Shown: positions 8,709 to 26,898, numbered from the stretch's first letter. The stretch: 64,000 nucleotides of DNA from Trypanosoma brucei (GCA_000002445.1 CP000069.1:480001-544000), one strand, 5' to 3'. Made by a program: numbers and translations. Notes: generated by a model not told the origin, from the letters alone.

Positions 8709-10368
8709 TCCTGTGATTCTTCATTATGCACGACAAAGCAAGAAACAAAAAACAGAATTCACATTAAACACAACAGTAATATCAAATAAATGTTGTCTAT
8801 CATGACATGCGCATGTATTATCCCACAGAGCAGTTATTGACTTTCAACCATCGGCGCAAAATGATATATCTTCAAAGGCAGAGCAAACAAACTAACATAA
8901 CATCCAACAGGCCATCTCAACAAGCTCACTATACACGAGGATAGTAAATTCGTCAAATCACTTTACAGATGCCATCGTCGTGATTTCCATTAAACTTTCT
9001 GAATTCCATGTCCCTCTCTCTCTCTCTGAAAGGAATTTGCTTAAAGCATAACATCTAATTCCCCAAAAATGAGTTACACATCCCACATCAAGTCTTTCAC
9101 CCGCCTTACCCTGGTGTATTTCAATCACTCAACTTCTGACAATTCCTATATTCATATTCTTTTCGTTACACTTCCTTAAAATCCTTCCAGACAACCAAGC
9201 ACATCACATTGTTTTATCTTTACATCACTATTAAATGAACAGCAAAAAAAAAATGTACACATCTCCAACACACATGCCGAGTAAACTTCTTGACACCTGA
9301 GGCCGCTCCCACTCCAATCTCGATGGCCTTAACATCAATAACACTCTTGACTAACACTAATATTATTGTGTGATAAAAGAATTGGAAGGATACATTCCCT
9401 AACATGATACCGAAAATTACTGAAACACAAATGTGTAAAGAGTCTAGGAATGGATATACAAAAGGTGGTGTTTAGTAAGAGAAGGGCAATTAACTGCCAC
9501 CCGGAGTGTCTATTTCGTTTAACCTCATCCCGTATATTGTCAACAATACAAAGTCTTATAAAACACACCACCAGTTGTTCTCCAATAAATATACGTTATA
9601 CATGCCAATATCACAAACACTGCAACATCCTCTTTCTTCAACACTTCAAATACGTAACTCATATATCACTTGCTAAAGGTCTTAGTACCATATCCATGCC
9701 TCACTGAAGGGTTTGTGCCGTAACCCAATTAAATGTTGCTTCCTCTCCTCCTTCCATTTCCTCACAATAGGATACGCAGAGCTGCAACTTTGTAATATGT
9801 GCGCAGTTGATGGGGACTTCAGCCGTTATCACTTTAAATTGCAAATGGAAATTCTGAAACAATTCCAATACTCCCTCATGAATACCAACTGTTGCGTGTG
9901 TGTCTCCCATATACCGGCAGTTGCCATTACTGCAATGTTATGCTCAATGAGGATCTTTTTAATATCAAGTGTTAACGGCAACTATTTTATTGTTCATGTC
10001 AGGCTCATATTCATGTAAGTGAAATGGGTGAAACTGTTCTTTTCCTTACTTTGCATTATATAAATAAGAGGAAATAAGGGATGCTTGTTAGAGGCACGCA
10101 ACAGACACATACACATATGAGAGTTTCCATCCAACAATACATACATACCCTTTAAATAGTCCACCAACTGGAGGATGACACCAGCATGTCAGTGAGGGAA
10201 GCAGTATGTCTAGGAATAACATAAAAGACACGCGTGAAGGAATTTACATATTTGTTGCCTTGCTTTGCCTGCTGCGAATACCATATCACCTCCATCAGTA
10301 AAGTTACGGAATTCGGTAAACTTCCATGAATGCACATAAGCAACTGATACACACACACTTTTCCCTTC

Positions 10369-10983
10369 CTATTCCTCTCCTGCACAACTCACATGTTCAC
10401 TTGACGCACTGTCATCCGCTGCAGCAAGTAACTGTTGTCTTCCAGGTGGTTTCTCTCCAGTCAATGCACCACAGAAGCTTACAGTTACTGGCAAAACGGG
10501 TCTGCCCACATCATCAAGAGGAACTGCCTCAAGTTTCTCTAGCAGTGAGAGATCATCAATGGCACGTCCAAACACAACTTGCTTGAAATCAAGAGATGGA
10601 GAAGGACCAAGTGTAATGCCAAATACGGAGCCACTTGTGTGAGGACCCTCAGAGATCATTGTGAGGAGCCCACGTTCCGTGTGTCGGTGACGGTATCCTT
10701 CATCCGCTATTGGTGTGCCAGTGGAGGAGAGGTTAAAGGAATCCAATTCACCCAACACAATGATATTATTGTTGTGATCCACATGATGCACTTGTGTGCC
10801 AAGGTAATCCAATTTCACACCCGTGTTGGTGTCAATCCCACATGACCCAGTGATTAATGCCCTGAAGTTTTCTACGGTTTGTGGCACTACATCGTCAAAG
10901 AGCTCAAATACCAGTCGTCCGCTGAGAACGTCATCAATAGACATATCCAGGAAGGCACGGCAGGAGTTCTGTTCCTCCTTCAT
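10369..10983 (-). CDS. Cyclophilin-like protein, copy 1 (cyclophilin-type PPIase fold, divergent). It is 204 aa from the first ATG; the ORF track extends it to 11034 with an apparent GTG.
   Basis: It aligns to the cyclophilin A core: RLVFELFDDVVPQTVENFRALITG matches [23 protein letters not shown], and FKQVVFGRAIDDLSLLEKLEAV matches [22 protein letters not shown]. Several catalytic positions (Arg55, Gln63, Asn102, Trp121, His126 equivalents) appear substituted. ATG at 10981-10983 checked; the codon at 11032-11034 is cac, i.e. GTG in sense. Confidence 0.7.
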   Translation of the reverse strand: MKEEQNSCRAFLDMSIDDVLSGRLVFELFDDVVPQTVENFRALITGSCGIDTNTGVKLDYLGTQVHHVDHNNNIIVLGELDSFNLSSTGTPIADEGYRHRHTERGLLTMISEGPHTSGSVFGITLGPSPSLDFKQVVFGRAIDDLSLLEKLEAVPLDDVGRPVLPVTVSFCGALTGEKPPGRQQLLAAADDSASSEHVSCAGEE

Positions 10984-11581
10984 GCGATGACTCCGCTGGT
11001 AATTTTCCCATTCCTTTAAGCGGTGCTGTCTCACATAATCTCATAATTTCCTAGTTTGCACTTTACAAAAGGACAAAAAAAAAAGTAAATATATTGACAC
11101 AACGAAGCACACTCCGTACCCATCCTCCCTCTATTGTTAGTTTCCCAACCAATATACTGCACATTATATGCACAGTAAACGTAAGCTAAAATATATAGAT
11201 ATCTGGTAACCGCAACTGGCGGTTGTAACACTAGTCAATACGGTGCACATAAATTTTATACGAGTTCTTACGAACAAAGTTATTCCATCAACAATATGAA
11301 ACACAAAATGATATATAAACACACAAGACAAACAAACCCCATCTCTGCCAAATGCACTTTTACATTTCTACGGGTGAGCCATTATTGGAGTCCCGTGGCA
11401 GTAAACACTATTACAAACATTATTGGGGGAAGCTTTGGAATAGGATATATAAGACAAGGAAATCAGTAACACAACACATTTGAATGCTTACATTAATTTA
11501 TAGAATATTGATGCGTATGATAACGTTGCGGCAAACAGTTTACATTGCAATATGCTTTTGAATCGTATTTCATTATGATAG

Positions 11582-12607
11582 TCAGATAAAACAGAGGGAT
11601 ACTGACAGTAACGTAATTTTGAGTGAGGGGGATGATGCAATATTCTGTTTTTGTGTTTGTGTGGGTTGAGCATCGGAATCCTTTCGTGCTGCAGTTTGGG
11701 GTGCTGTTCTCGAGGGTTGCGCACCTTCAGCTCCAGCTCCAGATTCCTTTAATGCCTTTACTTCCTCTTCATTTTTCGCTTTACCGTAAGTTCCCCTCAA
11801 CTTTTCGACTTGCTCTCTCAACTTTTGAAGAGCCTCATCTCTTCCCTTCATGTGGTCTGTTGCCTCATTCAAGTTCTTAACCCACGGCTTAGAAGTAAAT
11901 ATATCAGGCTCCTCCTCAGGCATTGGTGGACCGCCGGGCGGCGGGGGTGGTGGACCGTCATGTATTGGTTTTTCAGGATACAATCCTCGCAAACCCTCCA
12001 AGTCCTTTCTTATGGCATCAACAGTAACCTCAACTCTATTGATACCCTTTGTACATTTTCCCTTAAGTTCAACCCATGCCTGAAGACCGTCTTCGGCGTT
12101 TCCGTTCTGGCCATACTCTCGGGCTTTCCCGCTCCCAAGGCAGTAGTCGGTGGCCTCACCAACAGAGCTGCAAGTGCAGACAATTTCTTTTGGTAATGCT
12201 GGCCACTCGCTAGCTGGGTTACAGGGCTGGTTGCCCCCATGGGACCCAAACGTTTTGTCCGCATCCTCTTTTTCAATGTTTTCCCCATACGCTGCTTTTT
12301 GAAACGATGACCTGGCGCCATTTTCATGACTCTTTACTTCGTCTTCTAACTCTTTAACTTTATCCACCTCCGCTTTTAAAGCTGGTGAATCCCTGGCATC
12401 TTTATTAAACCACTGATAATCTTCGGTTTCTTTTAACTTATCGAGGTGACTTTTTTCTTTCGCTCCCTTTTCTGCCTTCGTGAAGAGTGAGCACAAGAGA
12501 TCAAATCCCTTTTTGTTTTTTTCATGGTCAACTGCGTTATCGTCTTGAGCTGTTATCCGCGTTACCAACACTCCCACCATGACCACTTTCATAATTACTC
12601 TCCACAT
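11582..12607 (-). CDS. Surface-protein family copy 2, 341 aa.
   Basis: ATG confirmed at 12605-12607. Architecture matches copy 1. Pro tract GPPPPPPGGPPMPEEEPD. The C-terminal ~75 aa are identical to copies 4 and 5. Confidence 0.8.
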   Translation of the reverse strand: MWRVIMKVVMVGVLVTRITAQDDNAVDHEKNKKGFDLLCSLFTKAEKGAKEKSHLDKLKETEDYQWFNKDARDSPALKAEVDKVKELEDEVKSHENGARSSFQKAAYGENIEKEDADKTFGSHGGNQPCNPASEWPALPKEIVCTCSSVGEATDYCLGSGKAREYGQNGNAEDGLQAWVELKGKCTKGINRVEVTVDAIRKDLEGLRGLYPEKPIHDGPPPPPPGGPPMPEEEPDIFTSKPWVKNLNEATDHMKGRDEALQKLREQVEKLRGTYGKAKNEEEVKALKESGAGAEGAQPSRTAPQTAARKDSDAQPTQTQKQNIASSPSLKITLLSVSLCFI

Positions 12608-14251
12608 AGATGTATACCTTTATTATTCGTAATAACAACACAGTAAAAAATAATAGAACATTCATAATAAACACTACAATAATATCAAATCAATGTTGTC
12701 TATCATAACATTGCGTATATTATCCCACAGAGCAAGTGTTAATTTTAAACTCTCGGCAGAAAGTGATATATCTTGCACAGGCAGAGCAAACAGGCTGAAA
12801 TAAAATAGCACCCAACAGGCCATCTCCACAAGTTCACTATACACACAAGAATGATAAATTCACTCAGTTACTCAACAGATGCCAGATATTTGATTTCCCA
12901 TAAACTTTTTTTATTCCTTACTGCTCTAACTCTCTGAAAGGAATTTCCCTCATACAGTAGATTCAGCTGGGTCAAGAAGAGGCACACATCCCACCTCAAC
13001 TTTTTCACCTGCCCAATTTCGGTTTATTTCGGCCAGATACCTTATGATAATTCCCATACTCATATCATTATAGTCACACTTTCTCCATGTCCTCTCAGAC
13101 ACACAAACAAATCATGTTCCTCAATCTTCACATCGCTGTTAAAAACAACAACAGCAAAAAGAAAATACCCACGGTATATTCATTGCTATCTTGTTCCAAA
13201 GCTAGTTCCGTGACCGTAACGTCAGCGACATTCCCTACGAACACAAATATTATCATGTGATAAAAGAATTGGAAGGACACATTTCCTAATATGAAACCGC
13301 AAATCACTGAAACACAAATGTGTAAAGTGTCTAGGAATGGATATACAAAAGGTGGTGTTTAGTGAGGGAAGGATTATTAACTGCCACCCAGTGTGTCTAT
13401 TTCTTTACACCTCATTTCGTATATTGTCAACAATACAAAGTCTTATAAAACATACCATCAGTTGTTCTCCAATAAATATACGTTATACATGCCAATATCA
13501 CAGACACTGCAACATCCTCTTTCTTCAACACTTCAAATACGTAACTCATATACTACTTGCTAAATGTCTTAGTACCATATCCATGCCTCACTGAAGGGTT
13601 TGTGCCGTAACCCAATTAAATGTTGCTTCCTCTCCTCCTTCCATTTCCTCACAATATGATACGCAGAGCTGCAACTTTGTAATATGTGCGCAGTTGATGG
13701 GGACTTCAGTGGTTATCACTTTAAATTGCAAATGGAAATTCTGAAACAGTTCCAATACTCCCTCATGAATACCAACTAGTGTGTGTCTCCCATATACTAG
13801 CAGTTGTCATTACTGCAATGTTATGCTCAATGAGGATCTTTTTATTATCAAGTGTTAGCGCCAACTATTTTATTGTTCATGTCAGGCTCATATTCATGTA
13901 AGTGAAATGGGTGAAACTGTTCTTTTCCTTACTTTGCATTATATAAATAAGAGGAAATAAGGAATGCTTGTTAGAGGCACTCAACAGACACATACACATA
14001 TGAGAGTTTCCATCCAACAATACATACATATCCTTTAAATAGTCCACCAACTGGAGGATGACACCAGCAGGTCAGTGAGGGAAGCAGTATGTCTAGGAAT
14101 AATATAAAAGACACGTGTGACAAAATTTACATATTTGTTGCCTTGCTTTGCCTGCTGCGAATACCATATCACCTCCATCAGTAAAGTTACGGAATTCGGT
14201 AAACTTCCATGAATGCACATAAGCAACTGATACACACACTCTCTTCCCTTT

Positions 14252-14866
14252 CTATTCCTCTCCTGCACAACTCACATGTTCACTTGACGCACTGTCATCC
14301 GCTGCAGCAGGTACCTGTTGTCTTCCAGGTGGTTTCTCTCCAGTCAATGCACCACAGAAGCTTACAGTTACTGGCAAAACGGGTCTGTCCACATCATCAA
14401 GAGGAACTGCCTCAAGTTTCTCTAGCAGTGAGAGATCATCAATGGCACGTCCAAACACAACTTGCTTGAAATCAAGAGATGGAGAAGGACCAAGTGTAAT
14501 GCCAAATACGGAGCCACTTGTGTGAGGACCCTCAGAGATCATTGTGAGAAGCCCACGTTCCGTGTGTCGGTGACGGTATCCTTCATCCGCTATTGGTGTG
14601 CCAGTGGAGGAGAGGTTAAAGGAATCCAATTCACCCAACACAATGATATTATTGTTGTGATCCACATGATGCACTTGTGTGCCAAGGTAATCCAATTTCA
14701 CACCCGTGTTGGTGTCAATCCCACATGACCCAGTGATTAATGCCCTGAAGTTTTCTACGGTTTGTGGCACTACATCGTCAAAGAGCTCAAATACCAGTCG
14801 TCCGCTGAGAACGTCATCGATGGACATGTCCAGGAAGGCACGGCAGGAGTTCTGTTCCTCCTTCAT
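14252..14866 (-). CDS. Cyclophilin-like protein, copy 2, 204 aa.
   Basis: ATG confirmed at 14864-14866 (MKEEQNSC...). It is near-identical to the other copies, with DDVDRP in place of DDVGRP. An upstream in-frame stop comes from a c-to-a change (ttttacc versus ttttccc). Confidence 0.7.
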   Translation of the reverse strand: MKEEQNSCRAFLDMSIDDVLSGRLVFELFDDVVPQTVENFRALITGSCGIDTNTGVKLDYLGTQVHHVDHNNNIIVLGELDSFNLSSTGTPIADEGYRHRHTERGLLTMISEGPHTSGSVFGITLGPSPSLDFKQVVFGRAIDDLSLLEKLEAVPLDDVDRPVLPVTVSFCGALTGEKPPGRQQVPAAADDSASSEHVSCAGEE

Positions 14867-15466
14867 GCGATGACTCCGCTGGTAATTTTACCATTCCTTT
14901 AAGCGGTGCTGTCTCACATTATTTCATAATTTCCTAATTTGCACTCTACAGCAGGACAAAAAAAAAAAAGAGGAAATATATTGACACAGCAAAGCACACT
15001 CAGTACCCATCCTCCCTCTATTGTTAGTCTCCACACCAATATATTGCCCATTATATGCACAGGAAACGTAAGCTAAAATATATATAGATATCCGGTAACC
15101 GCAACTGGCGGTTGCAACAGTAGCCAACACGGTACACATAAATGTTTTAAGTTCTTACGAACAAAGTTATTCCATCAATAATATGAAACACAAAATGGCA
15201 TAAACACACAAGACAAACAAACCCCATCTCTGCCAAATGCACTTTTACATTTCTGTGGGTGAGCCATTATTGGAGTCCCGTGGCAGTAAACACTATTACA
15301 AACATTATTCGGAGAAGCTTTGAAATAAGATATATAAGACAAGGAAATCAGTAACACAACACATTTGAATGCTTACATTAGTTTATAGAATATTGATGCG
15401 TATGATAGCGTTGCGGCAAACAGTTTACATTGCAATATGCTTTTGAATCGTTCCTTATTATGATAG

Positions 15467-16504
15467 TCAGATAAAACAGAGGGATACTGATAGTAACGTA
15501 ATTTTGAGTGAGGGAAATGATGCAATATTCTGTTTTTGTGTTTGTGTTTGTGTGGGTTGAGGATCGGAATCCTTTCGTGCTGCAGTTTGGGGTGCTGTTC
15601 TCGAGGGTTGCACACCTTCAGCTCCAGCTCCAGATTCCTTTAATGCCTTTACTTCCTCTTCATTTTTCGCTCTACCGTAAGTTCCCTTCAGCCTTTTAAC
15701 TTTCTCCTTCAAGTTTTCCAGCGCTGCATCTCTCTTATTCATATGGCTCATCGCCTCATCTAACCGCTTAACCCATGGCTTAGAAGCAAGAGGATCAGGC
15801 CTTTCAGGTATTTGTAGTGGTGAACTGTCTGGTGGTGGTGGTGATGGTGGTGGTGGGGGTGGTGGGGGTGGTGGGGAATCAACTTCCTGGTCTTCTGAAT
15901 ACAATCCTCGCAAATTCTCCAAGTCTTTTCTTATGGCTTCAATAGTAACCTCAACTCTTTCGCTATCCTTTGTACACCTGCTCTTAACTCCATACCATGC
16001 CTGTAGACCGTCTTCCGCTGTCCCGCTTTGGTCATGGCCATAACTTCGAGCCTTCCCGCTCCCAAGGCAGTAGTCGGTGGCCTCGCCAACAGAGCTGCAA
16101 ATGCAGACAATTTCTTTTGGTATTGTTGGCCACTCACTAGCTGGGTTACAGGGCTGGTTGCCCCCATGGGATCCAAAAGTTTTGTCCGCATCCTCTTTTT
16201 CAATGTTTTCCCCATACGCTGCTTTCCGAAACGCTGTCCTGGCATTATTTTCATGACTCTGCACTTCGCTTTCTAACTCTTTCACCTTTTCCGTCTCCGT
16301 TTTCAGAGTCGATGAATCTCTAGCATGTTTCAACTTACCGATGTAGTTTTCTCCTTTTGCTCCCTCTGCCGCCTTCGTGAAGAGCGAGCACAAAATATCA
16401 AACATCTTCTCGTTTTTGCCATGGTTCCTCCAGCTGTCCTCGCCGACAGTAACCTGCGATACCAACACTCCCACCATGACCACTTGCATAAATGATCGCC
16501 ACAT
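15467..16504 (-). CDS. Surface-protein family copy 3, 345 aa, the most divergent N-terminal and central region.
   Basis: N-terminus MWRSFMQVVMVGVLVSQVTVG. Longest Pro tract, SPPPPPPPPPPSPPPPDSSP, encoded by a (GGT/GGG)n run on the plus strand at ~15830-15880. Shares the invariant C-terminal tail. Confidence 0.8.
   Translation of the reverse strand: MWRSFMQVVMVGVLVSQVTVGEDSWRNHGKNEKMFDILCSLFTKAAEGAKGENYIGKLKHARDSSTLKTETEKVKELESEVQSHENNARTAFRKAAYGENIEKEDADKTFGSHGGNQPCNPASEWPTIPKEIVCICSSVGEATDYCLGSGKARSYGHDQSGTAEDGLQAWYGVKSRCTKDSERVEVTIEAIRKDLENLRGLYSEDQEVDSPPPPPPPPPPSPPPPDSSPLQIPERPDPLASKPWVKRLDEAMSHMNKRDAALENLKEKVKRLKGTYGRAKNEEEVKALKESGAGAEGVQPSRTAPQTAARKDSDPQPTQTQTQKQNIASFPSLKITLLSVSLCFI
15828..15880. 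repeat. (GGT/GGG)n trinucleotide-like tract encoding the poly-Pro hinge of surface-protein copy 3
   Basis: ggtggtggtggtgatggtggtggtgggggtggtgggggtggtgggg on the plus strand encodes PPPPPPPPPPSPPPP on the minus strand. Shorter, different-length equivalents lie in the other four copies at ~8000-8050, 11930-11960, 19680-19720 and 23560-23600. Confidence 0.85.
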
Positions 16505-18097
16505 TGTTGTCTTTCTTCACTGTAAACAACAGCACAGAGAAAAACAGCATTCATATTAAACACTACCGTAAAATCAAATAAATGCTGTCTACCTTAAAAC
16601 ATGCACATGTATTATCCCACAGATCAAATATTAATTTTCAACCATCGGCATAAAAAGATATGCCTTTCGTAGGCAGAGCAAACAAACTAACATAACATCC
16701 AACAAGCCACCTCAACAAGCTCACTATACACGAGGATAGTAAATTCGTCAAATCACTATACAGATGCCATCGTCGTCATTTCCCTCATACAGTAGATTCA
16801 GCTGGGTCAAAAAGAGACACACATCCCACATCAAGTCTTTCACCTGCCTTATCCTGGTGTATTTCAATCACTCAACCTCTGACAATTGCTATATTCATAT
16901 TCTTTTGGTTACACTTTCTTAATATCCTCTCAGATACACGAGCACATCACATTGCTTATCTTTACATGGCAATCCAAAATAACAACAGAACCAAAATGCA
17001 CACAGTAAACTTCTTGACACCTGAGGCCGCTCCCACTCCAATCTCGAGGGCCTTAACATCAGAGACACTCTTGACTAACACTAATACTATTGTGTGATAA
17101 AAGAATTGGAAGGATACATTTCCTAACATGACACCGAAAATTACTGAAACACAAATGTGTAAAGTGTCTATGGATGGAAATGCAAAATATGTGGTGTTTA
17201 GTAAGGGAAGGATTATTAACTGCCACCCGGAGTGTATATTTCGTTTAACCTCACTCTGCATATTCTGAACAATACCAAATCTTATAAAACACACCACCAG
17301 TTGTTCTCCAATAAATATACGTTATACATGCCAATATCACAAACACTGCAACATCCTCTTTCTTCAACACTTCAAATACGTAACTCATATATCACTTGCT
17401 AAAGGTCTTAGTACCATATCCATGCCTCACTGAAGGGTTCGTGCCCCTACCCAATTAAATGTTGCTTCCTCTCCTCCTTCCATTTCCTCACAATATGATA
17501 CGCAGAGCTGCAACTTTGTAATATGTGCGCAGTTGATGGGGACTTCAGCCGTTATCACTTTAAATTGCAAATGGAAATTCTGAAACAATTCCAATACTCC
17601 CTCATGAATACCAACTGTTGCGTGTGTGTCTCCCATATACCGGCAGTTGCCATTACTGCAATGTTATGCTCAATGAGGATCTTTTTAATATCAAGTGTTA
17701 ACGGCAACTATTTTATTGTTCATGTCAGGCTCATATTCATGTAAGTGAAATGGGTGAAACTGTTCTTTTCCTTACTTTGCATTATATAAATAAGAGGAAA
17801 TAAGGGATGCTTGTTAGAGGCACGCAACAGACACATACACATATGAGAGTTTCCATCCAACAATACATACATACCCTTTAAATAGTCCACCAACTGGAGG
17901 ATGACACCAGCATGTCAGTGAGGGAAGCAGTATGTCTAGGAATAACATAAAAGACACGCGTGAAGGAATTTACATATTTGTTGCCTTGCTTTGCCTGCTG
18001 CTACGAATACCATATCACCTCCATCAGTAAAGTTACGGAATTCGGTAAACTTCCATGAATGCACATAAGCAACTGATACACACACACTTTTCCCTTC

Positions 18098-18712
18098 CTA
18101 TTCCTCTCCTGCACAACTCACATGTTCACTTGACGCACTGTCATCCGCTGCAGCAAGTAACTGTTGTCTTCCAGGTGGTTTCTCTCCAGTCAATGCACCA
18201 CAGAAGCTTACAGTTACTGGCAAAACGGGTCTGCCCACATCATCAAGAGGAACTGCCTCAAGTTTCTCTAGCAGTGAGAGATCATCAATGGCACGTCCAA
18301 ACACAACTTGCTTGAAATCAAGAGATGGAGAAGGACCAAGTGTAATGCCAAATACGGAGCCACTTGTGTGAGGACCCTCAGAGATCATTGTGAGGAGCCC
18401 ACGTTCCGTGTGTCGGTGACGGTATCCTTCATCCGCTATTGGTGTGCCAGTGGAGGAGAGGTTAAAGGAATCCAATTCACCCAACACAATGATATTATTG
18501 TTGTGATCCACATGATGCACTTGTGTGCCAAGGTAATCCAATTTCACACCCGTGTTGGTGTCAATCCCACATGACCCAGTGATTAATGCCCTGAAGTTTT
18601 CTACGGTTTGTGGCACTACATCGTCAAAGAGCTCAAATACCAGTCGTCCGCTGAGAACGTCATCAATAGACATATCCAGGAAGGCACGGCAGGAGTTCTG
18701 TTCCTCCTTCAT
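18098..18712 (-). CDS. Cyclophilin-like protein, copy 3, 204 aa from the first ATG. The ORF track extends it to 18763.
   Basis: The translated protein is identical to copy 1. Confidence 0.7.
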   Translation of the reverse strand: MKEEQNSCRAFLDMSIDDVLSGRLVFELFDDVVPQTVENFRALITGSCGIDTNTGVKLDYLGTQVHHVDHNNNIIVLGELDSFNLSSTGTPIADEGYRHRHTERGLLTMISEGPHTSGSVFGITLGPSPSLDFKQVVFGRAIDDLSLLEKLEAVPLDDVGRPVLPVTVSFCGALTGEKPPGRQQLLAAADDSASSEHVSCAGEE

Positions 18713-19316
18713 GCGATGACTCCGCTGGTAATTTTCCCATTCCTTTAAGCGGTGCTGTCTCACATTATTTCATAATTTCCTAATTTGCACTCTACAGCAG
18801 GACAAAAAAAAAAAAGAGGAAATATATTGACACAGCAAAGCACACTCAGTACCCATCCTCCCTCTATTGTTAGTCTCCACACCAATATATTGCCCATTAT
18901 ATGCACAGGAAACGTAAGCTAAAATATATATAGATATCCGGTAACCGCAACTGGCGGTTGTAACACTAGTCAATACGGTGCACATAAATTTTATACGAGT
19001 TCTTACGAACAAAGTTATTCCATCAACAATATGAAACACAAAATGATATATAAACACACAAGACAAACAAACCCCATCTCTGCCAAATGCACTTTTACAT
19101 TTCTACGGGTGAGCCATTATTGGAGTCCCGTGGCAGTAAACACTATTACAAACATTATTGGGGGAAGCTTTGGAATAGGATATATAAGACAAGGAAATCA
19201 GTAACACAACACATTTGAATGCTTACATTAATTTATAGAATATTGATGCGTATGATAACGTTGCGGCAAACAGTTTACATTGCAATATGCTTTTGAATCG
19301 TTCCTTATTATGATAG

Positions 19317-20360
19317 TCAGATAAAACAGAGGGATACTGATAGTAACGTAATTTTGAGTGAGGGGGATGATGCAATATTCTGTTTTTGTGTTTGTGTGGG
19401 TTGAGCATCGGAATCCTTTCGTGCTGCAGTTTGGGGTGCTGTTCTCGAGGGTTGCGCACCTTCAGCTCCAGCTCCAGATTCCTTTAATGCCTTTACTTCC
19501 TCTTCATTTTTCGCTTTACCGTAAGTTCCCCTCAACTTTTCGACTTGCTCTCTCAACTTTTGAAGAGCCTCATCTCTTCCCTTCATGTGGTCTGTTGCCT
19601 CATTCAAGTTCTTAACCCACGGCTTAGAAGTAAATATATCAGGCTCCTCCTCAGGCATTGGTGGACTGCCAGGTGGGAACGGAGGTGGCGGTGGTGGCGG
19701 TGGAGGTTCTTGGCCTTTTGAGTCGTCTGAATACAAACCCCTCAAACCCTCCAAGTCCTTTTCTATAGCTTCGACAGTAACCTCGGCACTGCTGCTGGCA
19801 CTCGTACATTTTCCCTTAACTCCATTCCATGCCTGTAGACGCTGTTCAGCCGTGGTATCGTCGTGATTTCGGGCATTCTCGCTCCCACCGAAGCAGCTTT
19901 CAGTGGCACCTTGTGTGGGGCTGCAACTACAGATGATACTGTTAGGTATCGTTGACCATCGGTTTGTTTCGTCGCATGGATTGCCTACTGTATGGTGTCC
20001 AAAAGTTTTGTCCGCGTCCTCTTCTTCAATGTTATCCCCATAGGCTGCTTTCCGAAACGCTGTCTTGGCGCCACTTTCATGGCTCTGCACTTTGTTTTCT
20101 AACTCTTTAACTTTATCCACCTCCGCTTTTAAAGCTGGTGAATCCCTGGCATCTTTATTAAACCACTGATAATCTTCGGTTTCTTTTAGCTTATCGAGGT
20201 GACTTTTTTCTTTCGCTCCCTTTTCTGCCTTCGTGAAGAGTGAGCACAAGAGATCAAATCCCTTCTTGTCTTTCTCGTGGTCAATCCAGTCATTCTTTCC
20301 CATTGCAACTCCCGTTACCAACACTCCCACCATGACCACTTTCATAATTACTCTCCACAT
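19317..20360 (-). CDS. Surface-protein family copy 4, 347 aa.
   Basis: N-terminus MWRVIMKVVMVGVLVTGVAMGKNDW. Pro tract EPPPPPPPPPFPPGSPPMPEEEPD. It differs from copy 5 at only ~6 residues. Confidence 0.8.
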   Translation of the reverse strand: MWRVIMKVVMVGVLVTGVAMGKNDWIDHEKDKKGFDLLCSLFTKAEKGAKEKSHLDKLKETEDYQWFNKDARDSPALKAEVDKVKELENKVQSHESGAKTAFRKAAYGDNIEEEDADKTFGHHTVGNPCDETNRWSTIPNSIICSCSPTQGATESCFGGSENARNHDDTTAEQRLQAWNGVKGKCTSASSSAEVTVEAIEKDLEGLRGLYSDDSKGQEPPPPPPPPPFPPGSPPMPEEEPDIFTSKPWVKNLNEATDHMKGRDEALQKLREQVEKLRGTYGKAKNEEEVKALKESGAGAEGAQPSRTAPQTAARKDSDAQPTQTQKQNIASSPSLKITLLSVSLCFI

Positions 20361-21987
20361 AGATGTATACCTTTATTATTCGTAATAACAACACAGTAAA
20401 AAATAATAGAACATTAATATTAAACACTACAGTAATATCAAATCAATGTTGTCTATCATAACATTGCGTATATTATCCCACAGAGCAGTTATTACTGTTT
20501 AACTCTCAGCAGAAAGTGATATGCCATTCATAGGCAGAGCATGCAAACTAACATAACATCCAACAAGCCATCTCCACAAGCTCACTATACACGAGGATAG
20601 TAAATTCACGAAGTCACTTTACAGATGCCATCGTCGTGATTTCCCTCAATCTTTTTTTATTCCTTACTGCTCTAACTCTCTGAAAGGAATTTCCCTCATA
20701 CAGTAGATTCAGCTGGGTCAAAAAGAGGCACACATCCCACATCAAGTCTTTCACCTGCCTTATCCTGGTGTATTTCAACCACACACCTTCTAGGAATATT
20801 CATATATAATTATAGTCACACTTTCTCCATGTCCTCTCAGACACAAGAACAAATCATGATCCTCTACTTTTACATCACTATTAAATGAACAGCAAAAAGA
20901 AAATACACACAATATATTCATTGATATATGGTTCCCACTGCTGGTTCCGTGACCGTAATGTCAGTGACACATTTTACGAACACAAATACTATGATAAAAG
21001 AATTGGAAGGACACATTTCCTAACATGACACCGAAAATTACTGAAACACAAATGTGTAAAGTGTCTATGGATGGAAATGCAAAATATGTGGTGTTTAGTA
21101 AGGGAAGGATTATTAGCTGCCACCCGGAGTGTATATTTCTTTACACCTCATTTCGTATCTTGTCAACAATACAAAGTCTTATAAAACACACCACCAGTTG
21201 TTCTCCAATAAATATACGTTATACATGCCAATATCACAGACACTGCAACATCCTCTTTCTTCAACACTTCAAATACGTAACTCATATATCACTTGCTAAA
21301 GGTCTTAGTACCATATCCATGCCTCACTGAAGGGTTTGTGCCGTAACCCAATTAAATGTTGCTTCCTCTCCTCCTTCCATTTCCTCACAATATGATACGC
21401 AGAGCTGCAACTTTGTAATATGTGCGCAGTTGATGGGGACTTCAGTGGTTATCACTTTAAATTGCAAATGGAAATTCTGAAACAGTTCCAATACTCCCTC
21501 ATGAATACCAACTAGTGTGTGTCTCCCATATACTAGCAGTTGTCATTACTGCAATGTTATGCTCAATGAGGATCTTTTTATTATCAAGTGTTAGCGCCAA
21601 CTATTTTATTGTTCATGTCAGGCTCATATTCATGTAAGTGAAATGGGTGAAACTGTTCTTTTCCTTACTTTGCATTATATAAATAAGAGGAAATAAGGAA
21701 TGCTTGTTAGAGGCACTCAACAGACACATACACATATGAGAGTTTCCATCCAACAATACATACATATCCTTTAAATAGTCCACCAACTGGAGGATGACAC
21801 CAGCAGGTCAGTGAGGGAAGCAGTATGTCTAGGAATAATATAAAAGACACGTGTGACAAAATTTACATATTTGTTGCCTTGCTTTGCCTGCTGCGAATAC
21901 CATATCACCTCCATCAGTAAAGTTACGGAATTCGGTAAACTTCCATGAATGCACATAAGCAACTGATACACACACACTTTTCCCTTC

Positions 21988-22602
21988 CTATTCCTCTCCT
22001 GCACAACTCACATGTTCACTTGACGCACTGTCATCCGCTGCAGCAAGTAACTGTTGTCTTCCAGGTGGTTTCTCTCCAGTCAATGCACCACAGAAGCTTA
22101 CAGTTACTGGCAAAACGGGTCTGCCCACATCATCAAGAGGAACTGCCTCAAGTTTCTCTAGCAGTGAGAGATCATCAATGGCACGTCCAAACACAACTTG
22201 CTTGAAATCAAGAGATGGAGAAGGACCAAGTGTAATGCCAAATACGGAGCCACTTGTGTGAGGACCCTCAGAGATCATTGTGAGGAGCCCACGTTCCGTG
22301 TGTCGGTGACGGTATCCTTCATCCGCTATTGGTGTGCCAGTGGAGGAGAGGTTAAAGGAATCCAATTCACCCAACACAATGATATTATTGTTGTGATCCA
22401 CATGATGCACTTGTGTGCCAAGGTAATCCAATTTCACACCCGTGTTGGTGTCAATCCCACATGACCCAGTGATTAATGCCCTGAAGTTTTCTACGGTTTG
22501 TGGCACTACATCGTCAAAGAGCTCAAATACCAGTCGTCCGCTGAGAACGTCATCAATAGACATATCCAGGAAGGCACGGCAGGAGTTCTGTTCCTCCTTC
22601 AT
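21988..22602 (-). CDS. Cyclophilin-like protein, copy 4, 204 aa from the first ATG. The ORF track extends it to 22653.
   Basis: Identical to copies 1 and 3. Confidence 0.7.
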   Translation of the reverse strand: MKEEQNSCRAFLDMSIDDVLSGRLVFELFDDVVPQTVENFRALITGSCGIDTNTGVKLDYLGTQVHHVDHNNNIIVLGELDSFNLSSTGTPIADEGYRHRHTERGLLTMISEGPHTSGSVFGITLGPSPSLDFKQVVFGRAIDDLSLLEKLEAVPLDDVGRPVLPVTVSFCGALTGEKPPGRQQLLAAADDSASSEHVSCAGEE

Positions 22603-23202
22603 GCGATGACTCCGCTGGTAATTTTCCCATTCCTTTAAGCGGTGCTGTCTCACATAATCTCATAATTTCCTAGTTTGCACTTTACAAAAGGACAAAAAAA
22701 AAAGTAAATATATTGACACAACGAAGCACACTCCGTACCCATCCTCCCTCTATTGTTAGTTTCCCAACCAATATACTGCACATTATATGCACAGTAAACG
22801 TAAGCTAAAATATATATAGATATCTGGTAACCGCAACTGGCGGTTGTAACACTAGTCAATACGGTGCACATAAATTTTATACGAGTTCTTACGAACAAAG
22901 TTATTCCATCAACAATATGAAACACAAAATGATATATAAACACACAAGACAAACAAACCCCATCTCTGCCAAATGCACTTTTACATTTCTACGGGTGAGC
23001 CATTATTGGAGTCCCGTGGCAGTAAACACTATTACAAACATTATTGGGGGAAGCTTTGGAATAGGATATATAAGACAAGGAAATCAGTAACACAACACAT
23101 TTGAATGCTTACATTAATTTATAGAATATTGATGCGTATGATAACGTTGCGGCAAACAGTTTACATTGCAATATGCTTTTGAATCGTATTTCATTATGAT
23201 AG

Positions 23203-24246
23203 TCAGATAAAACAGAGGGATACTGACAGTAACGTAATTTTGAGTGAGGGGGATGATGCAATATTCTGTTTTTGTGTTTGTGTGGGTTGAGCATCGGAAT
23301 CCTTTCGTGCTGCAGTTTGGGGTGCTGTTCTCGAGGGTTGCGCACCTTCAGCTCCAGCTCCAGATTCCTTTAATGCCTTTACTTCCTCTTCATTTTTCGC
23401 TTTACCGTAAGTTCCCTTTAACTTTTTGACTTGCTCTCTCAACTTTTGAAGAGCCTCATCTCTTCCCTTCATGTGGTCTGTTGCCTCATTCAAGTTCTTA
23501 ACCCATGGCTTAGAAGCAAATTGATCAGGCTTCTCCTCAGGCATTGGTGGACTGCCAGGTGGGAACGGAGGTGGCGGTGGTGGCGGTGGAGGTTCTTGGC
23601 CTTTTGAGTCGTCTGAATACAAAGCCCTCAAACCCTCCAAGTCCTTTTCTATAGCTTCGACAGTAACCTCGGCACTGCTGCTGGCACTCGTACATTTTCC
23701 CTTAACTCCATTCCATGCCTGTAGACGCTGTTCAGCCGTGGTATCGTCGTGATTTCGGGCATTCTCGCTCCCACCGAAGCAGCTTTCAGTGGCACCTTGT
23801 GTGGGGCTGCAACTACAGATGATACTGTTAGGTATCGTTGACCATCGGTTTGTTTCGTCGCATGGATTGCCTACTGTATGGTGTCCAAAAGTTTTGTCCG
23901 CGTCCTCTTCTTCAATGTTATCCCCATAGGCTGCTTTCCGAAACGCTGTCTTGGCGCCACTTTCATGGCTCTGCACTTTGTTTTCTAACTCTTTAACTTT
24001 ATCCACCTCCGCTTTTAAAGCTGGTGAATCCCTGGCATCTTTATTAAACCACTGATAATCTTCGGTTTCTTTTAGCTTATCGAGGTGACTTTTTTCTTTC
24101 GCTCCCTTTTCTGCCTTCGTGAAGAGTGAGCACAAGAGATCAAATCCCTTCTTGTCTTTCTCGTGGTCAATCCAGTCATTCTTTCCCATTGCAACTCCCG
24201 TTACCAACACTCCCACCATGACCACTTTCATAATTACTCTCCACAT
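23203..24246 (-). CDS. Surface-protein family copy 5, 347 aa.
   Basis: Near-identical to copy 4, with substitutions clustered around EEKPDQFASK and EQVKKLKG. These are states that copy 1 also carries. Confidence 0.8.
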   Translation of the reverse strand: MWRVIMKVVMVGVLVTGVAMGKNDWIDHEKDKKGFDLLCSLFTKAEKGAKEKSHLDKLKETEDYQWFNKDARDSPALKAEVDKVKELENKVQSHESGAKTAFRKAAYGDNIEEEDADKTFGHHTVGNPCDETNRWSTIPNSIICSCSPTQGATESCFGGSENARNHDDTTAEQRLQAWNGVKGKCTSASSSAEVTVEAIEKDLEGLRALYSDDSKGQEPPPPPPPPPFPPGSPPMPEEKPDQFASKPWVKNLNEATDHMKGRDEALQKLREQVKKLKGTYGKAKNEEEVKALKESGAGAEGAQPSRTAPQTAARKDSDAQPTQTQKQNIASSPSLKITLLSVSLCFI

Positions 24247-25873
24247 AGATGTATACCTTTATTATTCGTAATAACAACACAGTAAAAAATAATAGAACAT
24301 TAATATTAAACACTACAGTAATATCAAATCAATGTTGTCTATCATAACATTGCGTATATTATCCCACAGAGCAGTTATTACTGTTTAACTCTCAGCAGAA
24401 AGTGATATGCCATTCATAGGCAGAGCATGCAAACTAACATAACATCCAACAAGCCATCTCCACAAGCTCACTATACACGAGGATAGTAAATTCACGAAGT
24501 CACTTTACAGATGCCATCGTCGTGATTTCCCTCAATCTTTTTTTATTCCTTACTGCTCTAACTCTCTGAAAGGAATTTCCCTCATACAGTAGATTCAGCT
24601 GGGTCAAAAAGAGGCACACATCCCACATCAAGTCTTTCACCTGCCTTATCCTGGTGTATTTCAACCACACACCTTCTAGGAATATTCATATATAATTATA
24701 GTCACACTTTCTCCATGTCCTCTCAGACACAAGAACAAATCATGATCCTCTACTTTTACATCACTATTAAATGAACAGCAAAAAGAAAATACACACAATA
24801 TATTCATTGATATATGGTTCCCACTGCTGGTTCCGTGACCGTAATGTCAGTGACACATTTTACGAACACAAATACTATGATAAAAGAATTGGAAGGACAC
24901 ATTTCCTAACATGACACCGAAAATTACTGAAACACAAATGTGTAAAGTGTCTATGGATGGAAATGCAAAATATGTGGTGTTTAGTAAGGGAAGGATTATT
25001 AGCTGCCACCCGGAGTGTATATTTCTTTACACCTCATTTCGTATCTTGTCAACAATACAAAGTCTTATAAAACACACCACCAGTTGTTCTCCAATAAATA
25101 TACGTTATACATGCCAATATCACAGACACTGCAACATCCTCTTTCTTCAACACTTCAAATACGTAACTCATATATCACTTGCTAAAGGTCTTAGTACCAT
25201 ATCCATGCCTCACTGAAGGGTTTGTGCCGTAACCCAATTAAATGTTGCTTCCTCTCCTCCTTCCATTTCCTCACAATATGATACGCAGAGCTGCAACTTT
25301 GTAATATGTGCGCAGTTGATGGGGACTTCAGTGGTTATCACTTTAAATTGCAAATGGAAATTCTGAAACAGTTCCAATACTCCCTCATGAATACCAACTA
25401 GTGTGTGTCTCCCATATACCGGCAGTTGCCATTACTGCAATGTTATGCTCAATGAGGATCTTTTTATTATCAAGTGTTAGCGCCAACTATTTTATTGTTC
25501 ATGTCAGGCTCATATTCATGTAAGTGAAATGGGTGAAACTGTTCTTTTCCTTACTTTGCATTATATAAATAAGAGGAAATAAGGGATGCTTGTTAGAGGC
25601 ACGCAACAGACACATACACATATGAGAGTTTCCATCCAACAATACATACATATCCTTTAAATAGTCCACCAACTGGAGGATGACACCAGCAGGTCAGTGA
25701 GGGAAGCAGTATGTCTAGGAATAATATAAAAGACACGTGTGACAAAATTTACATATTTGTTGCCTTGCTTTGCCTGCTGCGAATACCATATCACCTCCAT
25801 CAGTAAAGTTACGGAATTCGGTAAACTTCCATGAATGCACATAAGCAACTGATACACACACACTTTTCCCTTC

Positions 25874-26656
25874 CTATTCCTCTCCTGCACAACTCACATG
25901 TTCACTTGACGCACTGTCATCCGCTGCAGCAGGTACCTGTTGTCTTCCAGGTGGTTTCTCTCCAGTCAATGCACCACAGAAGCTTACAGTTACTGGCAAA
26001 ACGGGTCTGCCCACATCATCAAGAGGAACTGCCTCAAGTTTCTCTAGCAGTGAGAGATCATCAATAGCACGTCCAAACACAACTTGCTTGAAATCAAGAG
26101 ATGGAGAAGGACCAAGTGTAATGCCAAATACGGAGCCACTTGTGTGAGGACCCTCAGAGATCATTGTGAGAAGCCCACGTTCCGTGTGTCGGTGACGGTA
26201 TCCTTCATCCGCTATTGGTGTGCCAGTGGAGGAGAGGTTAAAGGAATCCAATTCACCCAACACAATGATATTATTGTTGTGATCCACATGATGCACTTGT
26301 GTGCCAAGGTAATCCAATTTCACACCCGTGTTGGTGTCAATCCCACATGACCCAGTGATTAATGCCCTGAAGTTTTCTACGGTTCGCGGCACTACATCGT
26401 CAAAGAGTTCAAATACCAGTCGTCCGCTGAGAACGTCATCAATGGACATATCCAGGAAGGCACGGCAGGAGTTCTGTTCCTCCTTCATGCGATGACTCCG
26501 CTGGTAATTTTCCCATTCTTTTAAACGGCGCTCCTCCACATCGTCGTAACGACTCTGAAGTGTCGCAGAGTCTTCATCATTTTCTGGTCGTTGTAACCTC
26601 GAATCTCCCTTTTTCCTGCGGGAGTGCCGTACACCTTCTAGTTTTGTCGTTGACAT
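25874..26656 (-). CDS. Cyclophilin-like protein, copy 5, the full-length form: 260 aa from the ATG at 26656. The ORF-track start at 26692 is an apparent TTG.
   Basis: It has a unique ~56-aa N-terminal extension (MSTTKLEGVRHSRRKKGDS...RYDDVEERRLKEWENYQRSHR) that the internal copies lack. Homology to the internal copies begins at RLKEWENY, which is the array junction. ATG checked at 26654-26656. Confidence 0.65.
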   Translation of the reverse strand: MSTTKLEGVRHSRRKKGDSRLQRPENDEDSATLQSRYDDVEERRLKEWENYQRSHRMKEEQNSCRAFLDMSIDDVLSGRLVFELFDDVVPRTVENFRALITGSCGIDTNTGVKLDYLGTQVHHVDHNNNIIVLGELDSFNLSSTGTPIADEGYRHRHTERGLLTMISEGPHTSGSVFGITLGPSPSLDFKQVVFGRAIDDLSLLEKLEAVPLDDVGRPVLPVTVSFCGALTGEKPPGRQQVPAAADDSASSEHVSCAGEE

Positions 26657-26898
26657 CAAAACAATCACTAGGCCTATTCCGCGCTGAAGCAAGATGTCGA
26701 ATAAGTGAATGCTATCTCAATCCTCTGAAGTTTTAAAATGAAAGCCGAAGAAAGAGGAGAAATAAAGGATGGAAGAGTGAGGGATGCTGGGCGTATTGGT
26801 AGTGTAACCATAAACACTATAGGTGATGTGAAAACAATGATTCCCTGAAGCCTCTTGGGTGGGGGTAAGGGAAGATAAAGGAGGAGAAAGAAGATCAG

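What the first reader, a model, noticed from the sequence alone, without database searches (positions are those of the whole stretch)
10369..26692. Cyclophilin-like genes look catalytically degenerate (pseudo-PPIase) yet are kept intact in all five copies
The fold-defining blocks of cyclophilin A are present: the ...ELF.D.VP.T.ENFRAL.TG... beta-strands and the C-terminal ...VVFG...-helix. Aligned by eye, the residues corresponding to human CypA Arg55, Gln63, Asn102, Trp121 and His126 appear replaced (roughly HHV for HRI, LGELD for CQGGD, ISEGP for ANAGP, SLDFKQ for WLDGKH). A PPIase-dead cyclophilin scaffold kept as five 100%-identical protein copies at 10369, 18098 and 21988, plus two near-identical copies, suggests selection for a non-catalytic role. 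Proline-motif binding or chaperoning of the neighbouring Pro-hinge surface protein are candidates.
Basis: inference. Interest (0 to 1): 0.65.

Follow-up and report, generated by a model that had tools for sequence, protein, structure and literature searches.

The report
Ancient inactive cyclophilin, four truncated copies
These genes are copies of an old trypanosome cyclophilin that has lost its enzyme site, but only one of the five is full length, the array and the lost residues are already published, and nothing ties it to the neighbouring surface protein.

Summary
The window is Trypanosoma brucei brucei TREU927 chromosome 6. The five cyclophilin-like genes are real (Pfam PF00160, E about 1e-25). 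The loss of the catalytic site is also real: 12 of the 13 human CypA functional positions are replaced.

The gene is the T. brucei orthologue of Leishmania CyP9. This family occurs in kinetoplastids and diplonemids, and every member examined keeps at most 5 of the 13 positions. It is under strong purifying selection between species and carries a highly conserved N-terminal helix motif (EERRLKEWENYQRSHR). A non-catalytic role is therefore well supported, but by deep conservation, not by the five copies.

Only the copy at 25874-26656 is full length (260 aa). The other four are 5'-truncated products of a segmental duplication whose junction lies inside the coding sequence. They lack the family motif, start at Met57 and sit behind an out-of-frame upstream ORF. 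Their near-identity fits concerted evolution or recent duplication.

The link to the neighbouring Fam1 surface gene is specific to T. brucei, and the two proteins would be in different compartments.

The array (Jackson 2010, 2013) and the residue losses in LmaCyP9 (Yau 2010) are already published. Interest is low.

The parts
25874..26656 (-). Full-length CYP9-type cyclophilin-like gene (260 aa from ATG). Predicted layout: disordered N-terminus, helix 27-54, cyclophilin domain about 62-230, acidic tail.
   Evidence: Exact match to XP_845262. PF00160 E 2.3e-24. AF2 model pLDDT 75, pTM 0.70. Foldseek TM about 0.9 (normalised to target) to cyclophilins.
26489..26656 (-). Codons 1-56, present only in this copy. 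They include the family signature motif YDDVEERRLKEWENYQRSHR. The repeat homology boundary (GATGTGGA) is at about 26535-26542.
   Evidence: Alignments of the five copies and the distal flank. Motif conservation across the family.
21988..22602 (-). 5'-truncated cyclophilin copy, 204 aa from Met57.
18098..18712 (-). 5'-truncated cyclophilin copy, 204 aa. CDS identical to the 21988 and 10369 copies.
14252..14866 (-). 5'-truncated cyclophilin copy, 204 aa. It is a mosaic of full-length-like and truncated-like states. It carries G216D and a TAA stop in the leftover motif sequence upstream of its ATG.
10369..10983 (-). 5'-truncated cyclophilin copy, 204 aa, the last in the array.
10984..11090 (-). 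Region upstream of a truncated copy; the same arrangement recurs in the other three. It holds a polypyrimidine tract plus AG (11061-11090, a likely trans-splice acceptor) and an out-of-frame uATG at 11044 that opens a 36-codon uORF running to 10934, across the main ATG. It also holds an ATG-TGA minimal ORF at 11036 and the decayed remnant of codons 40-56.
   Evidence: Read directly from the sequence. Junction alignment.
6546..7112 (-). Distal flank of the array: a 188-aa ORF with no Pfam match. Its start (ATGATGTGG) supplies one side of the duplication junction.
   Evidence: No gene is called at this place in T. b. gambiense.
7653..8708 (-). Fam1 VSG-b-like GPI surface gene, the most divergent copy (351 aa).
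   Evidence: PMC3605285
11582..12607 (-). Fam1 copy (341 aa).
   Evidence: PF13206 hit
15467..16504 (-). Fam1 copy (345 aa).
   Evidence: PF13206 hit
19317..20360 (-). Fam1 copy (347 aa).
   Evidence: PF13206 hit
23203..24246 (-). Fam1 copy (347 aa).

Best explanation
The locus holds one functional gene for an ancient non-catalytic cyclophilin. This is the kinetoplastid CyP9 family (LmaCyP9 in L. major, TbgCyP29 in T. b. gambiense). It also holds four 5'-truncated passenger copies.

Shown.
- The family keeps the cyclophilin fold but has lost nearly all residues that bind and isomerise proline.
- It has a conserved N-terminal helix motif in front of the domain and a conserved FCGxLTGxxPPG motif behind it.
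- It evolves under purifying selection.
- It sits at the end of a conserved synteny block, next to a convergent strand switch.
- In strain TREU927 a roughly 3.9-kb segment has been multiplied. The segment comprises the T. brucei-specific Fam1 surface gene plus the 3' four-fifths of the cyclophilin gene.
- The junction is an 8-bp microhomology (GATGTGGA) between codons 39-41 of the cyclophilin and the start of the ORF distal to the array.
- The extra copies therefore lack the helix motif. They could only be translated from Met57, behind an out-of-frame upstream ORF.

Inferred.
- The near-identity of the copies comes from concerted evolution (gene conversion with the selected master copy) or recent duplication, not from selection on each copy.
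- The full-length protein works as a non-enzymatic adaptor or structural subunit. It would dock to a conserved partner through the N-terminal helix and a remodelled groove that is still partly constrained (I57D, N102S, F113G and H126Q are conserved in the family).
- It probably acts in the cytoplasm and flagellum. It does not chaperone Fam1.
For: Identity and family membership.
- Exact matches to T. b. brucei TREU927 chromosome 6 proteins.
- Orthologues at E from 1e-99 to 1e-42 in all trypanosomatids sampled, named cyclophilin 9 in Leptomonas and Novymonas.

Catalytic site.
- The T. brucei copy keeps 1 of the 13 CypA functional positions.
- All 28 family members examined keep at most 5 of 13, against 12-13 in canonical cyclophilins.
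- The family-specific states I57D (21/26), N102S (22/26), F113G (22/26) and H126Q (25/26) are conserved.
- The family with its N-terminal motif reaches a prokinetoplastid (Apiculatamorpha) and diplonemids (Artemidia, Lacrimia).

Selection and synteny.
- Between species pS is about 0.8 (saturated) and pN is 0.14-0.25. T. b. brucei against T. b. gambiense gives 8 synonymous and 2 non-synonymous differences.
- The gene order Cyclin_N, MATH, UPF0220, 229-aa gene, CYP9 is conserved, with CYP9 single copy, in T. b. gambiense, T. vivax, T. cruzi and Leptomonas. The shorter T. congolense contig keeps only the 229-aa gene next to a single CYP9. The downstream gene differs by lineage.

Truncation and homogenisation.
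- Truncation and junction.
- The leftover motif has 6 differences in 25 nt and a stop in one copy.
- Upstream ORF and splice signal.
- Mean identity between units is 0.995 in the CDS and 0.95-0.975 in the flanks. The Fam1 N-domain in the same units has dS 0.4-0.84.

Literature.
- The five-copy, two-gene unit of 3865 bp is single in T. b. gambiense (PMC2854126) and in T. evansi (PMC4288722).
- Fam1 is a surface and flagellar-pocket GPI protein (PMC3605285).
- LmaCyP9 has 11 of 13 functional residues changed (PMC2894131, Table 2).
- LmaCyP9 is listed as 'Axoneme and cytoplasm' in a review table drawn from databases (PMC11357558).
Against: - No experimental test of PPIase activity, partners or localisation of this protein was found.
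- The axoneme annotation is second-hand and is shared with other cyclophilins in the same table.
- Across the five copies, variable sites are 7 synonymous to 4 non-synonymous (my binomial estimate, p about 0.006). Some constraint on the domain within the array therefore cannot be excluded, although gene conversion prevents assigning it to the truncated copies.
- The CDS is 5-10 times less diverged than its flanks.
- The truncated copies have a plausible splice acceptor and an intact ORF, so they may be expressed.
- I could not see the AF2 coordinates, so how the helix packs on the domain is unknown.
Confidence: 0.72

Rival explanations
1. One reading: all five copies are kept by selection as a PPIase-dead scaffold that binds or chaperones the proline hinge of the adjacent Fam1 surface protein.
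For: The two genes are duplicated together as one unit. Fam1 has a poly-proline hinge. The cyclophilin domain ORF is intact in all five copies.
Against: - CYP9 exists as a single copy without Fam1 in every other species examined.
- It is single copy in T. b. gambiense and in T. evansi (PMC4288722).
- Four copies lack the family's conserved N-terminal motif.
- There is no signal peptide, so the protein is cytosolic, while Fam1 is lumenal or on the surface (PMC3605285).
- Most proline-pocket residues are lost (F60, M61, F113, H126; L122 remains).
- Gene adjacency in trypanosome polycistrons does not imply shared function (established knowledge).
Confidence: 0.04
2. The four truncated copies are expressed as a helix-less 204-aa cyclophilin domain. 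This form would have its own role (extra dosage of the domain, or competition with the full-length protein for its ligand) and would be kept by selection in TREU927.
For: - The ORF is intact from Met57.
- A polypyrimidine tract plus AG lies about 80 nt upstream.
- The CDS is more conserved than its flanks (0.995 against 0.95-0.975).
- Variable sites across the copies are 7 synonymous to 4 non-synonymous.
Against: - An out-of-frame uORF overlaps the start codon.
- Changes private to the truncated copies are 3 synonymous to 2 non-synonymous, including G216D at a conserved site.
- The extra copies are absent from T. b. gambiense and T. evansi.
- Gene conversion with the selected master copy explains the intact ORFs without selection on them.
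Confidence: 0.18
3. The protein is the trypanosome orthologue of PPIL6/RSP12, the inactive cyclophilin of the axonemal radial spokes.
For: PPIL6 is the top phmmer hit in the PDB (4.3e-28). PPIL6 is a non-catalytic structural subunit of radial spokes RS1 and RS2 (PMC11779644). A review table lists LmaCyP9 as 'Axoneme and cytoplasm' (PMC11357558).
Against: - The margin over PPIH and other cyclophilins is negligible (4.3e-28 against 1.1e-27).
- The margin disappears when the family profile is used.
- PPIL6 has an N-terminal domain of about 140 aa, whereas CYP9 has a short helix.
- The substitutions differ: PPIL6 keeps R55 and Q63 (alignment).
- In the table of Yau et al., LmaCyP12, which has a long N-terminal extension and H126Y, looks more PPIL6-like (PMC2894131).
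- No near-identical chain exists in any PDB entry, trypanosome axoneme structures included.
Confidence: 0.08
4. Despite the substitutions, the protein keeps weak or unusual PPIase activity or cyclosporin binding.
For: R55 is kept in 11 of 26 family members, for example in the T. cruzi clade. The fold is well preserved.
Against: In T. brucei R55, F60, M61, Q63, N102, Q111, F113, W121 and H126 are all replaced. From my own knowledge of the CypA mutagenesis literature, the single changes R55A, F60A or H126Q each cut activity to below about 1%.
Confidence: 0.06

Closest known systems
Leishmania major CyP9 (LmjF30.0020, LmaCyP9) and its trypanosomatid orthologues (TbgCyP29, Tbg972.6.1040)
   Same: Same orthologous family by sequence (49-78% identity) and by synteny. 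It shares the N- and C-terminal extensions. It shares the pattern of lost functional residues, including W121S and H126Q (PMC2894131 Table 2).
   Different: T. brucei and the other African trypanosomes have additionally lost R55 (to H). TREU927 carries four extra 5'-truncated copies that lack the N-terminal motif.
PPIL6 / Chlamydomonas RSP12 (inactive cyclophilin of radial spokes)
   Same: A cyclophilin fold used as a non-catalytic structural subunit. PPIL6 is the top single-sequence PDB hit. A flagellar location is possible, on second-hand evidence.
   Different: There is no specific sequence affinity with the family profile. The N-terminal architecture differs and so does the set of substitutions. 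Orthology is not supported.
Divergent-loop cyclophilins (Cyp40/PPID, PPIH, PPIG, NKTR, Brugia Cyp-1, C. elegans Cyp-3)
   Same: These are the best profile and fold matches. They share the insertion of about 8 residues after the GxxG motif (GIDTNTGVKLDY).
   Different: Those proteins keep the full catalytic set and are active. Kinetoplastid CYP9 also has a 4-6 residue deletion in the 69-75 loop.
Other cyclophilin domains used as structural subunits (plant NDH subunit PNSL5; the cyclophilin of the Toxoplasma mitoribosome)
   Same: The cyclophilin fold is built into large complexes. These entries appear among the PDB matches.
   Different: There is no specific relationship, and the complex that would hold CYP9 is unknown.

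Membership tests
Cyclophilin-type PPIase domain (Pfam PF00160) | Profile match above the gathering score over the whole domain | tested here: met
   87-90 bits against a cut-off of 21.7, profile positions 1-158 of 159, for the three distinct sequences tested. The other two copies are identical in CDS.
Cyclophilin-type PPIase domain (Pfam PF00160) | Eight-stranded beta-barrel cyclophilin fold | tested here: met
   The AF2 model has domain pLDDT mostly 80-94. Foldseek gives TM about 0.9 (normalised to target) and rmsd about 2 A to many cyclophilins.
Catalytically active cyclophilins | Conserved R55, F60, M61, Q63, A101, N102, A103, Q111, F113, W121, L122, H126 (CypA numbering) | tested here: not met
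   Only L122 is kept. The changes include R55H, F60N, Q63V, N102S, Q111V, F113G, W121S and H126Q.
Catalytically active cyclophilins | Measured PPIase activity and cyclosporin A binding | not testable with these tools
   This needs recombinant protein. No published assay of this protein was found in the papers read.
Kinetoplastid CyP9 orthologous group | Closest relatives are the CyP9 proteins of other trypanosomatids, at a conserved genomic position | tested here: met
   E from 1e-99 to 1e-48 to the trypanosomatid proteins, dropping to 1e-29 for generic cyclophilins. CYP9 follows the same 229-aa gene in all species checked, and the wider Cyclin_N-MATH block is conserved wherever the contig is long enough.
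Kinetoplastid CyP9 orthologous group | N-terminal helix motif D[IV]EERRLKEWENYQRSHR in front of the domain | tested here: inconclusive
   Met for the 25874-26656 copy. Not met for the four 204-aa copies, whose motif is cut by the duplication junction and lies upstream of their first in-frame ATG.
PPIL6 / RSP12 | Specific sequence affinity to PPIL6 over other cyclophilins | tested here: not met
   4.3e-28 against 1.1e-27 for the next hit with the single sequence. PPIL6 ranks fifth with the family profile.
PPIL6 / RSP12 | N-terminal domain of about 140 residues before the cyclophilin domain | tested here: not met
   The PPIL6 domain starts at residue about 139-143. The CYP9 domain starts at about residue 60, after a single helix.
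PPIL6 / RSP12 | Physical presence in radial spokes | not testable with these tools
   The only lead is a review table listing LmaCyP9 as 'Axoneme and cytoplasm' (PMC11357558). No identical chain is in the PDB.

The most novel reading that the evidence does not exclude
The CyP9 family is a pseudo-PPIase adaptor specific to kinetoplastids and diplonemids. It docks into a flagellar or cytoskeletal complex through its N-terminal helix. In TREU927 the four helix-less copies are translated and act as a natural free-domain competitor, or as extra dosage, that modulates that complex. This would make the strain a ready-made separation-of-function experiment.
Probability: 0.08. Interest if true: 0.5.

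Novelty: already known. Interest (0 to 1): 0.2.

Why it matters
The practical importance is small.

- It corrects a tempting inference. Identical tandem copies in a trypanosome array are not evidence of selection on each copy, and adjacency in a polycistron is not evidence of shared function.
- The CyP9 family is a clean, deeply conserved example of a cyclophilin turned into a non-enzyme. Its partner and role are still unknown. The conserved N-terminal helix motif gives a concrete handle for finding the partner.
[quoted passage not shown] None of the five is likely to be an isomerase.

Tried and rejected
- PPIL6/RSP12 orthology. It was suggested by the top phmmer hit. I rejected it because the margin vanishes with the family profile and the architecture differs.
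- Gene identifiers. I guessed Tb927.6.1240-.1320 and found these to be other genes. The array is most likely Tb927.6.1310-.1400 (PMC4288722), with cyclophilins at .1320.1340.1360.1380 and .1400, but I could not confirm this.
- TrypTag supplementary files. They contained none of these identifiers and no mention of 'cyclophilin'.
- An expression supplement listed Tb927.6.1320 and .1360 with erratic counts. These cannot be interpreted, because identical copies share their reads.
- The look-up of encoding contigs for the 204-aa protein returned nothing on record. Copy number in other T. brucei strains could therefore not be checked directly.
- The cap on papers was reached before I could look at axoneme protein lists.
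- AF2 coordinates are not exposed, so I could not tell whether the N-terminal helix packs onto the former active site.
- A test for selection on the truncated copies alone has too few events (3 synonymous, 2 non-synonymous) and is confounded by gene conversion.

Full report
**What the window is.**
The ORFs of the array match GenBank proteins of Trypanosoma brucei brucei TREU927 chromosome 6 exactly. These are XP_845254, XP_845256 and XP_845262 for the cyclophilins and XP_845255, 845257, 845259 and 845261 for the neighbours. The region from about 7.2 to 26.7 kb is a tandem array with a period of 3.84-3.93 kb.

On the minus strand, a cyclophilin-like gene alternates with a gene that hits the VSG_B domain (PF13206). 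The second gene is the published 'Fam1' family. Fam1 is a T. brucei-specific, VSG-b-derived, GPI-anchored protein of the flagellar pocket and endosomes (PMC3605285).

The array itself is published. It is described as a segmental duplication of a 3865-bp, two-gene unit, with five copies in TREU927 and a single unit in T. b. gambiense (PMC2854126, Table 1) and in T. evansi (PMC4288722). My fetch of the T. b. gambiense locus shows one 260-aa cyclophilin and one Fam1 gene.

**Check of the observation.**
The three distinct cyclophilin sequences tested match PF00160 end to end, with E from 2e-25 to 2e-24. The remaining two copies are identical in CDS to one of them.

HMMER alignments to solved cyclophilins and MAFFT alignments with human CypA agree on these changes: R55H, F60N, Q63V, A101I, N102S, A103E, Q111V, F113G, W121S and H126Q. 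M61 is replaced by I or N, depending on the alignment. Of the 13 positions used in the field for catalysis and cyclosporin binding, only L122 survives.

The fourth is off by one residue without changing the conclusion. The degeneracy is therefore real.

'Intact in all five copies' is not correct. ORF limits at GTG or TTG do not apply in a trypanosome. From ATG, the copy at 25874-26656 encodes 260 aa and the other four encode 204 aa, as annotated in GenBank.

**Anatomy of the duplication.**
I aligned the five copies and the distal flank. Homology between the full-length gene and the other four starts inside the coding sequence, at codons 39-41.

The junction is an 8-bp microhomology, GATGTGGA. 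It is shared by the cyclophilin (..GACGATGTGGAGGAG..) and by the start of the ORF that lies beyond the last Fam1 gene (6546-7112, ..GAGATGATGTGGAAC..).

In the four downstream copies, the 25 nt just after the junction carry 6 differences from the full-length gene, against 8 in the following 615 nt. The invariant EERR of the family motif has become RQHR. The 14252 copy has a TAA stop there.

The first in-frame ATG is Met57. Upstream of it lie three features:
- a polypyrimidine tract and AG (11061-11090 in the last unit), which is a plausible trans-splice acceptor inherited from the distal flank;
- an out-of-frame ATG at 11044, opening a 36-codon uORF that overlaps the main start;
- an ATG-TGA minimal ORF at 11036.

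These copies could therefore be transcribed and processed, but their translation would depend on leaky scanning. The product would lack residues 1-56.

**What the gene is.**
Database searches find clear orthologues in T. congolense, T. vivax, T. grayi, T. rangeli, T. conorhini, T. melophagium, T. cruzi, Phytomonas, Leptomonas and Novymonas. E-values run from 1e-99 to 1e-48, and then fall abruptly to generic cyclophilins at 1e-29. The Leptomonas and Novymonas proteins are named cyclophilin 9.

The gene lies at a conserved position in T. b. gambiense, T. vivax, T. cruzi and Leptomonas, and is single copy in each. The order is Cyclin_N gene, two unnamed genes, MATH-domain gene, UPF0220 gene, a 229-aa gene, then the cyclophilin. 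The T. congolense contig is short but shows the same 229-aa gene next to a single copy.

What follows the cyclophilin differs by lineage. It is Fam1 in T. brucei, an HpHbR-family gene in T. vivax, and unrelated genes in T. cruzi and Leptomonas.

An exhaustive profile search finds about 50 further cluster representatives that match from the N-terminal motif onward. Those with names come from a prokinetoplastid (Apiculatamorpha) and from diplonemids (Artemidia, Lacrimia).

All 28 family members I tabulated keep at most 5 of the 13 functional positions. Three canonical controls keep 12-13.

Within the 26 closest members, several replacement states are themselves conserved: I57D 21/26, N102S 22/26, F113G 22/26 and H126Q 25/26. 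R55, F60, Q63, A103, Q111 and W121 vary.

The most conserved segment of the whole protein is the N-terminal motif ..D[IV]EERRLKEWENYQRSHR... AlphaFold models it as part of a helix spanning residues 27-54, with pLDDT about 78-88.

Between Trypanosoma species, synonymous sites are saturated (pS about 0.8) while pN is 0.14-0.25. The family is thus an old, selectively maintained cyclophilin that is very unlikely to be an isomerase.

The loss of functional residues in the L. major orthologue was already tabulated in 2010: LmaCyP9 has 11 of 13 changed, including W121S and H126Q (PMC2894131, Table 2).

**Do the five copies show selection?**
Mean pairwise identity between the four complete units is as follows:
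- 0.995 over the cyclophilin CDS;
- 0.975 over the roughly 800 nt downstream of it;
- 0.95 over the roughly 550 nt upstream of it;
- 0.60-0.88 over the Fam1 N-terminal domain and its upstream region.

Synonymous divergence of the Fam1 N-domain between units is 0.4-0.84. In the cyclophilin it is 0-0.035. The units are therefore mosaics. Either the cyclophilin segment is kept uniform by gene conversion while Fam1 stays diverse, or the Fam1 N-domains have a separate origin.

Among the five cyclophilin copies there are 7 synonymous and 4 non-synonymous variable sites. My binomial estimate against a neutral 24:76 expectation is p about 0.006. However, the 14252 copy is visibly a mosaic of the full-length and truncated types, so these events cannot be assigned to lineages.

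Changes private to the truncated copies are 3 synonymous and 2 non-synonymous. The non-synonymous ones are R91Q at a variable site and G216D at a site conserved in at least 90% of the family. This is not significant.

The simplest reading is this. The full-length copy is under purifying selection. The truncated copies stay intact because they are young, or because they exchange sequence with it. The higher divergence at the edge of homology fits conversion tracts that seldom reach the boundary. I cannot exclude that the 204-aa form is made and useful.

**Relation to the neighbour.**
Four points argue against a functional pairing with Fam1.
- The cyclophilin family predates Fam1 by the whole depth of the kinetoplastids and diplonemids.
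- It has other neighbours elsewhere.
- It has no signal peptide. Its N-terminus is charged and is predicted to be disordered and then helical. Fam1 goes through the secretory pathway to the flagellar pocket (PMC3605285).
- Most of the residues that form the proline pocket are gone; only L122 remains.

**How it most likely works.**
Shown: the fold is kept, the site is lost, there are conserved terminal extensions, and there is purifying selection.

Inferred: the full-length protein is a non-enzymatic adaptor or structural subunit. Its conserved N-terminal helix and its partly re-fixed groove would bind a partner conserved across kinetoplastids.

Precedents exist for cyclophilin domains used this way. 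They include PPIL6 in mammalian radial spokes (PMC11779644), and cyclophilin subunits of the plant NDH complex and of a mitoribosome, both seen among the PDB matches.

A review table lists LmaCyP9 as 'Axoneme and cytoplasm' (PMC11357558). I believe this reflects database transfer of tagging data. I could not verify that, and several other cyclophilins carry the same label.

PPIL6 is the top single-sequence PDB hit, but only by a hair. It is not the top hit with the family profile, and its architecture differs. I therefore treat it as an analogue, not as a relative. By profile and by fold, the nearest relatives are the 'divergent-loop' cyclophilins such as Cyp40, PPIH, PPIG and Brugia Cyp-1, whose loop insertion the family shares.

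**Novelty and verdict.**
The array, the Fam1 family, the cyclophilin annotation and the residue losses in the orthologue are all in print.

Some points may be new in detail:
- the exact junction;
- the loss of the family motif in four copies;
- the upstream ORF;
- the extension of the degenerate family to diplonemids;
- the extra loss of R55 in the African trypanosomes and T. grayi.

None of this changes the category. The gene is a known one of a known kind (a pseudo-PPIase).

Noticed in passing
window 7653-24246 (Fam1 genes) compared with 10369-26656 (cyclophilin genes): Within the same repeat units, the Fam1 N-terminal domain has dS 0.4-0.84 and dN/dS about 0.4 between copies. The Fam1 C-terminal part, the intergenic DNA and the cyclophilin are 95-100% identical. 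The units are mosaics: either homogenisation stops at the Fam1 N-domain, or those domains were imported from elsewhere.
   Followed up: partly
literature against window 10369-26656: Yau et al. 2010 (PMC2894131) state that LmaCyP5 is the cyclophilin expanded to 'five sequentially arranged copies' in T. brucei, and speculate about a link to GPI-anchored VSG. By sequence, residue pattern and synteny, the five-copy array here is the orthologue of LmaCyP9 (LmjF30.0020). Either that paper mislabelled the family or a second array exists. I could not check the rest of the genome.
   Followed up: partly
window 6546-7112 (-): This 188-aa ORF has no Pfam match. Its ATGATGTGG start provides the distal side of the duplication junction, and its upstream polypyrimidine tract and AG now precede every truncated cyclophilin copy. 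No gene is called at the equivalent place in T. b. gambiense.
   Followed up: partly
L002:9706-10977 (T. vivax) compared with window 23203-24246: The slot just downstream of the CYP9 gene, at the end of the conserved synteny block, holds a different lineage-specific surface-protein gene in different trypanosomes. T. vivax has an HpHbR-family gene there and T. brucei has VSG-b-like Fam1. T. cruzi has trans-sialidase genes a few kb further on.
   Followed up: no
window 5253-6545: This is a convergent strand switch. The 310-aa ORF at 4320-5252 is on the plus strand, and everything from 6546 to at least 62987 is on the minus strand. The array therefore sits at the very end of a long polycistronic unit.
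   Followed up: no
alignment A1, CypA position 55: T. brucei, T. congolense, T. vivax and T. grayi have H at the catalytic Arg55 position. T. cruzi, T. rangeli and many bodonid-like and diplonemid members keep R. The last catalytic residue was thus lost late, within one Trypanosoma lineage.
   Followed up: partly
window 50001-52000 and 50683-50760: A markedly AT-rich stretch (GC 0.31, against 0.40-0.50 around it) contains an A/C-rich 36-bp imperfect repeat.
   Followed up: no
window 57710-57897: Two copies of a 93-bp tandem repeat, 95% identical, lie inside the 386-aa ORF at 56815-57975 (-).
   Followed up: no
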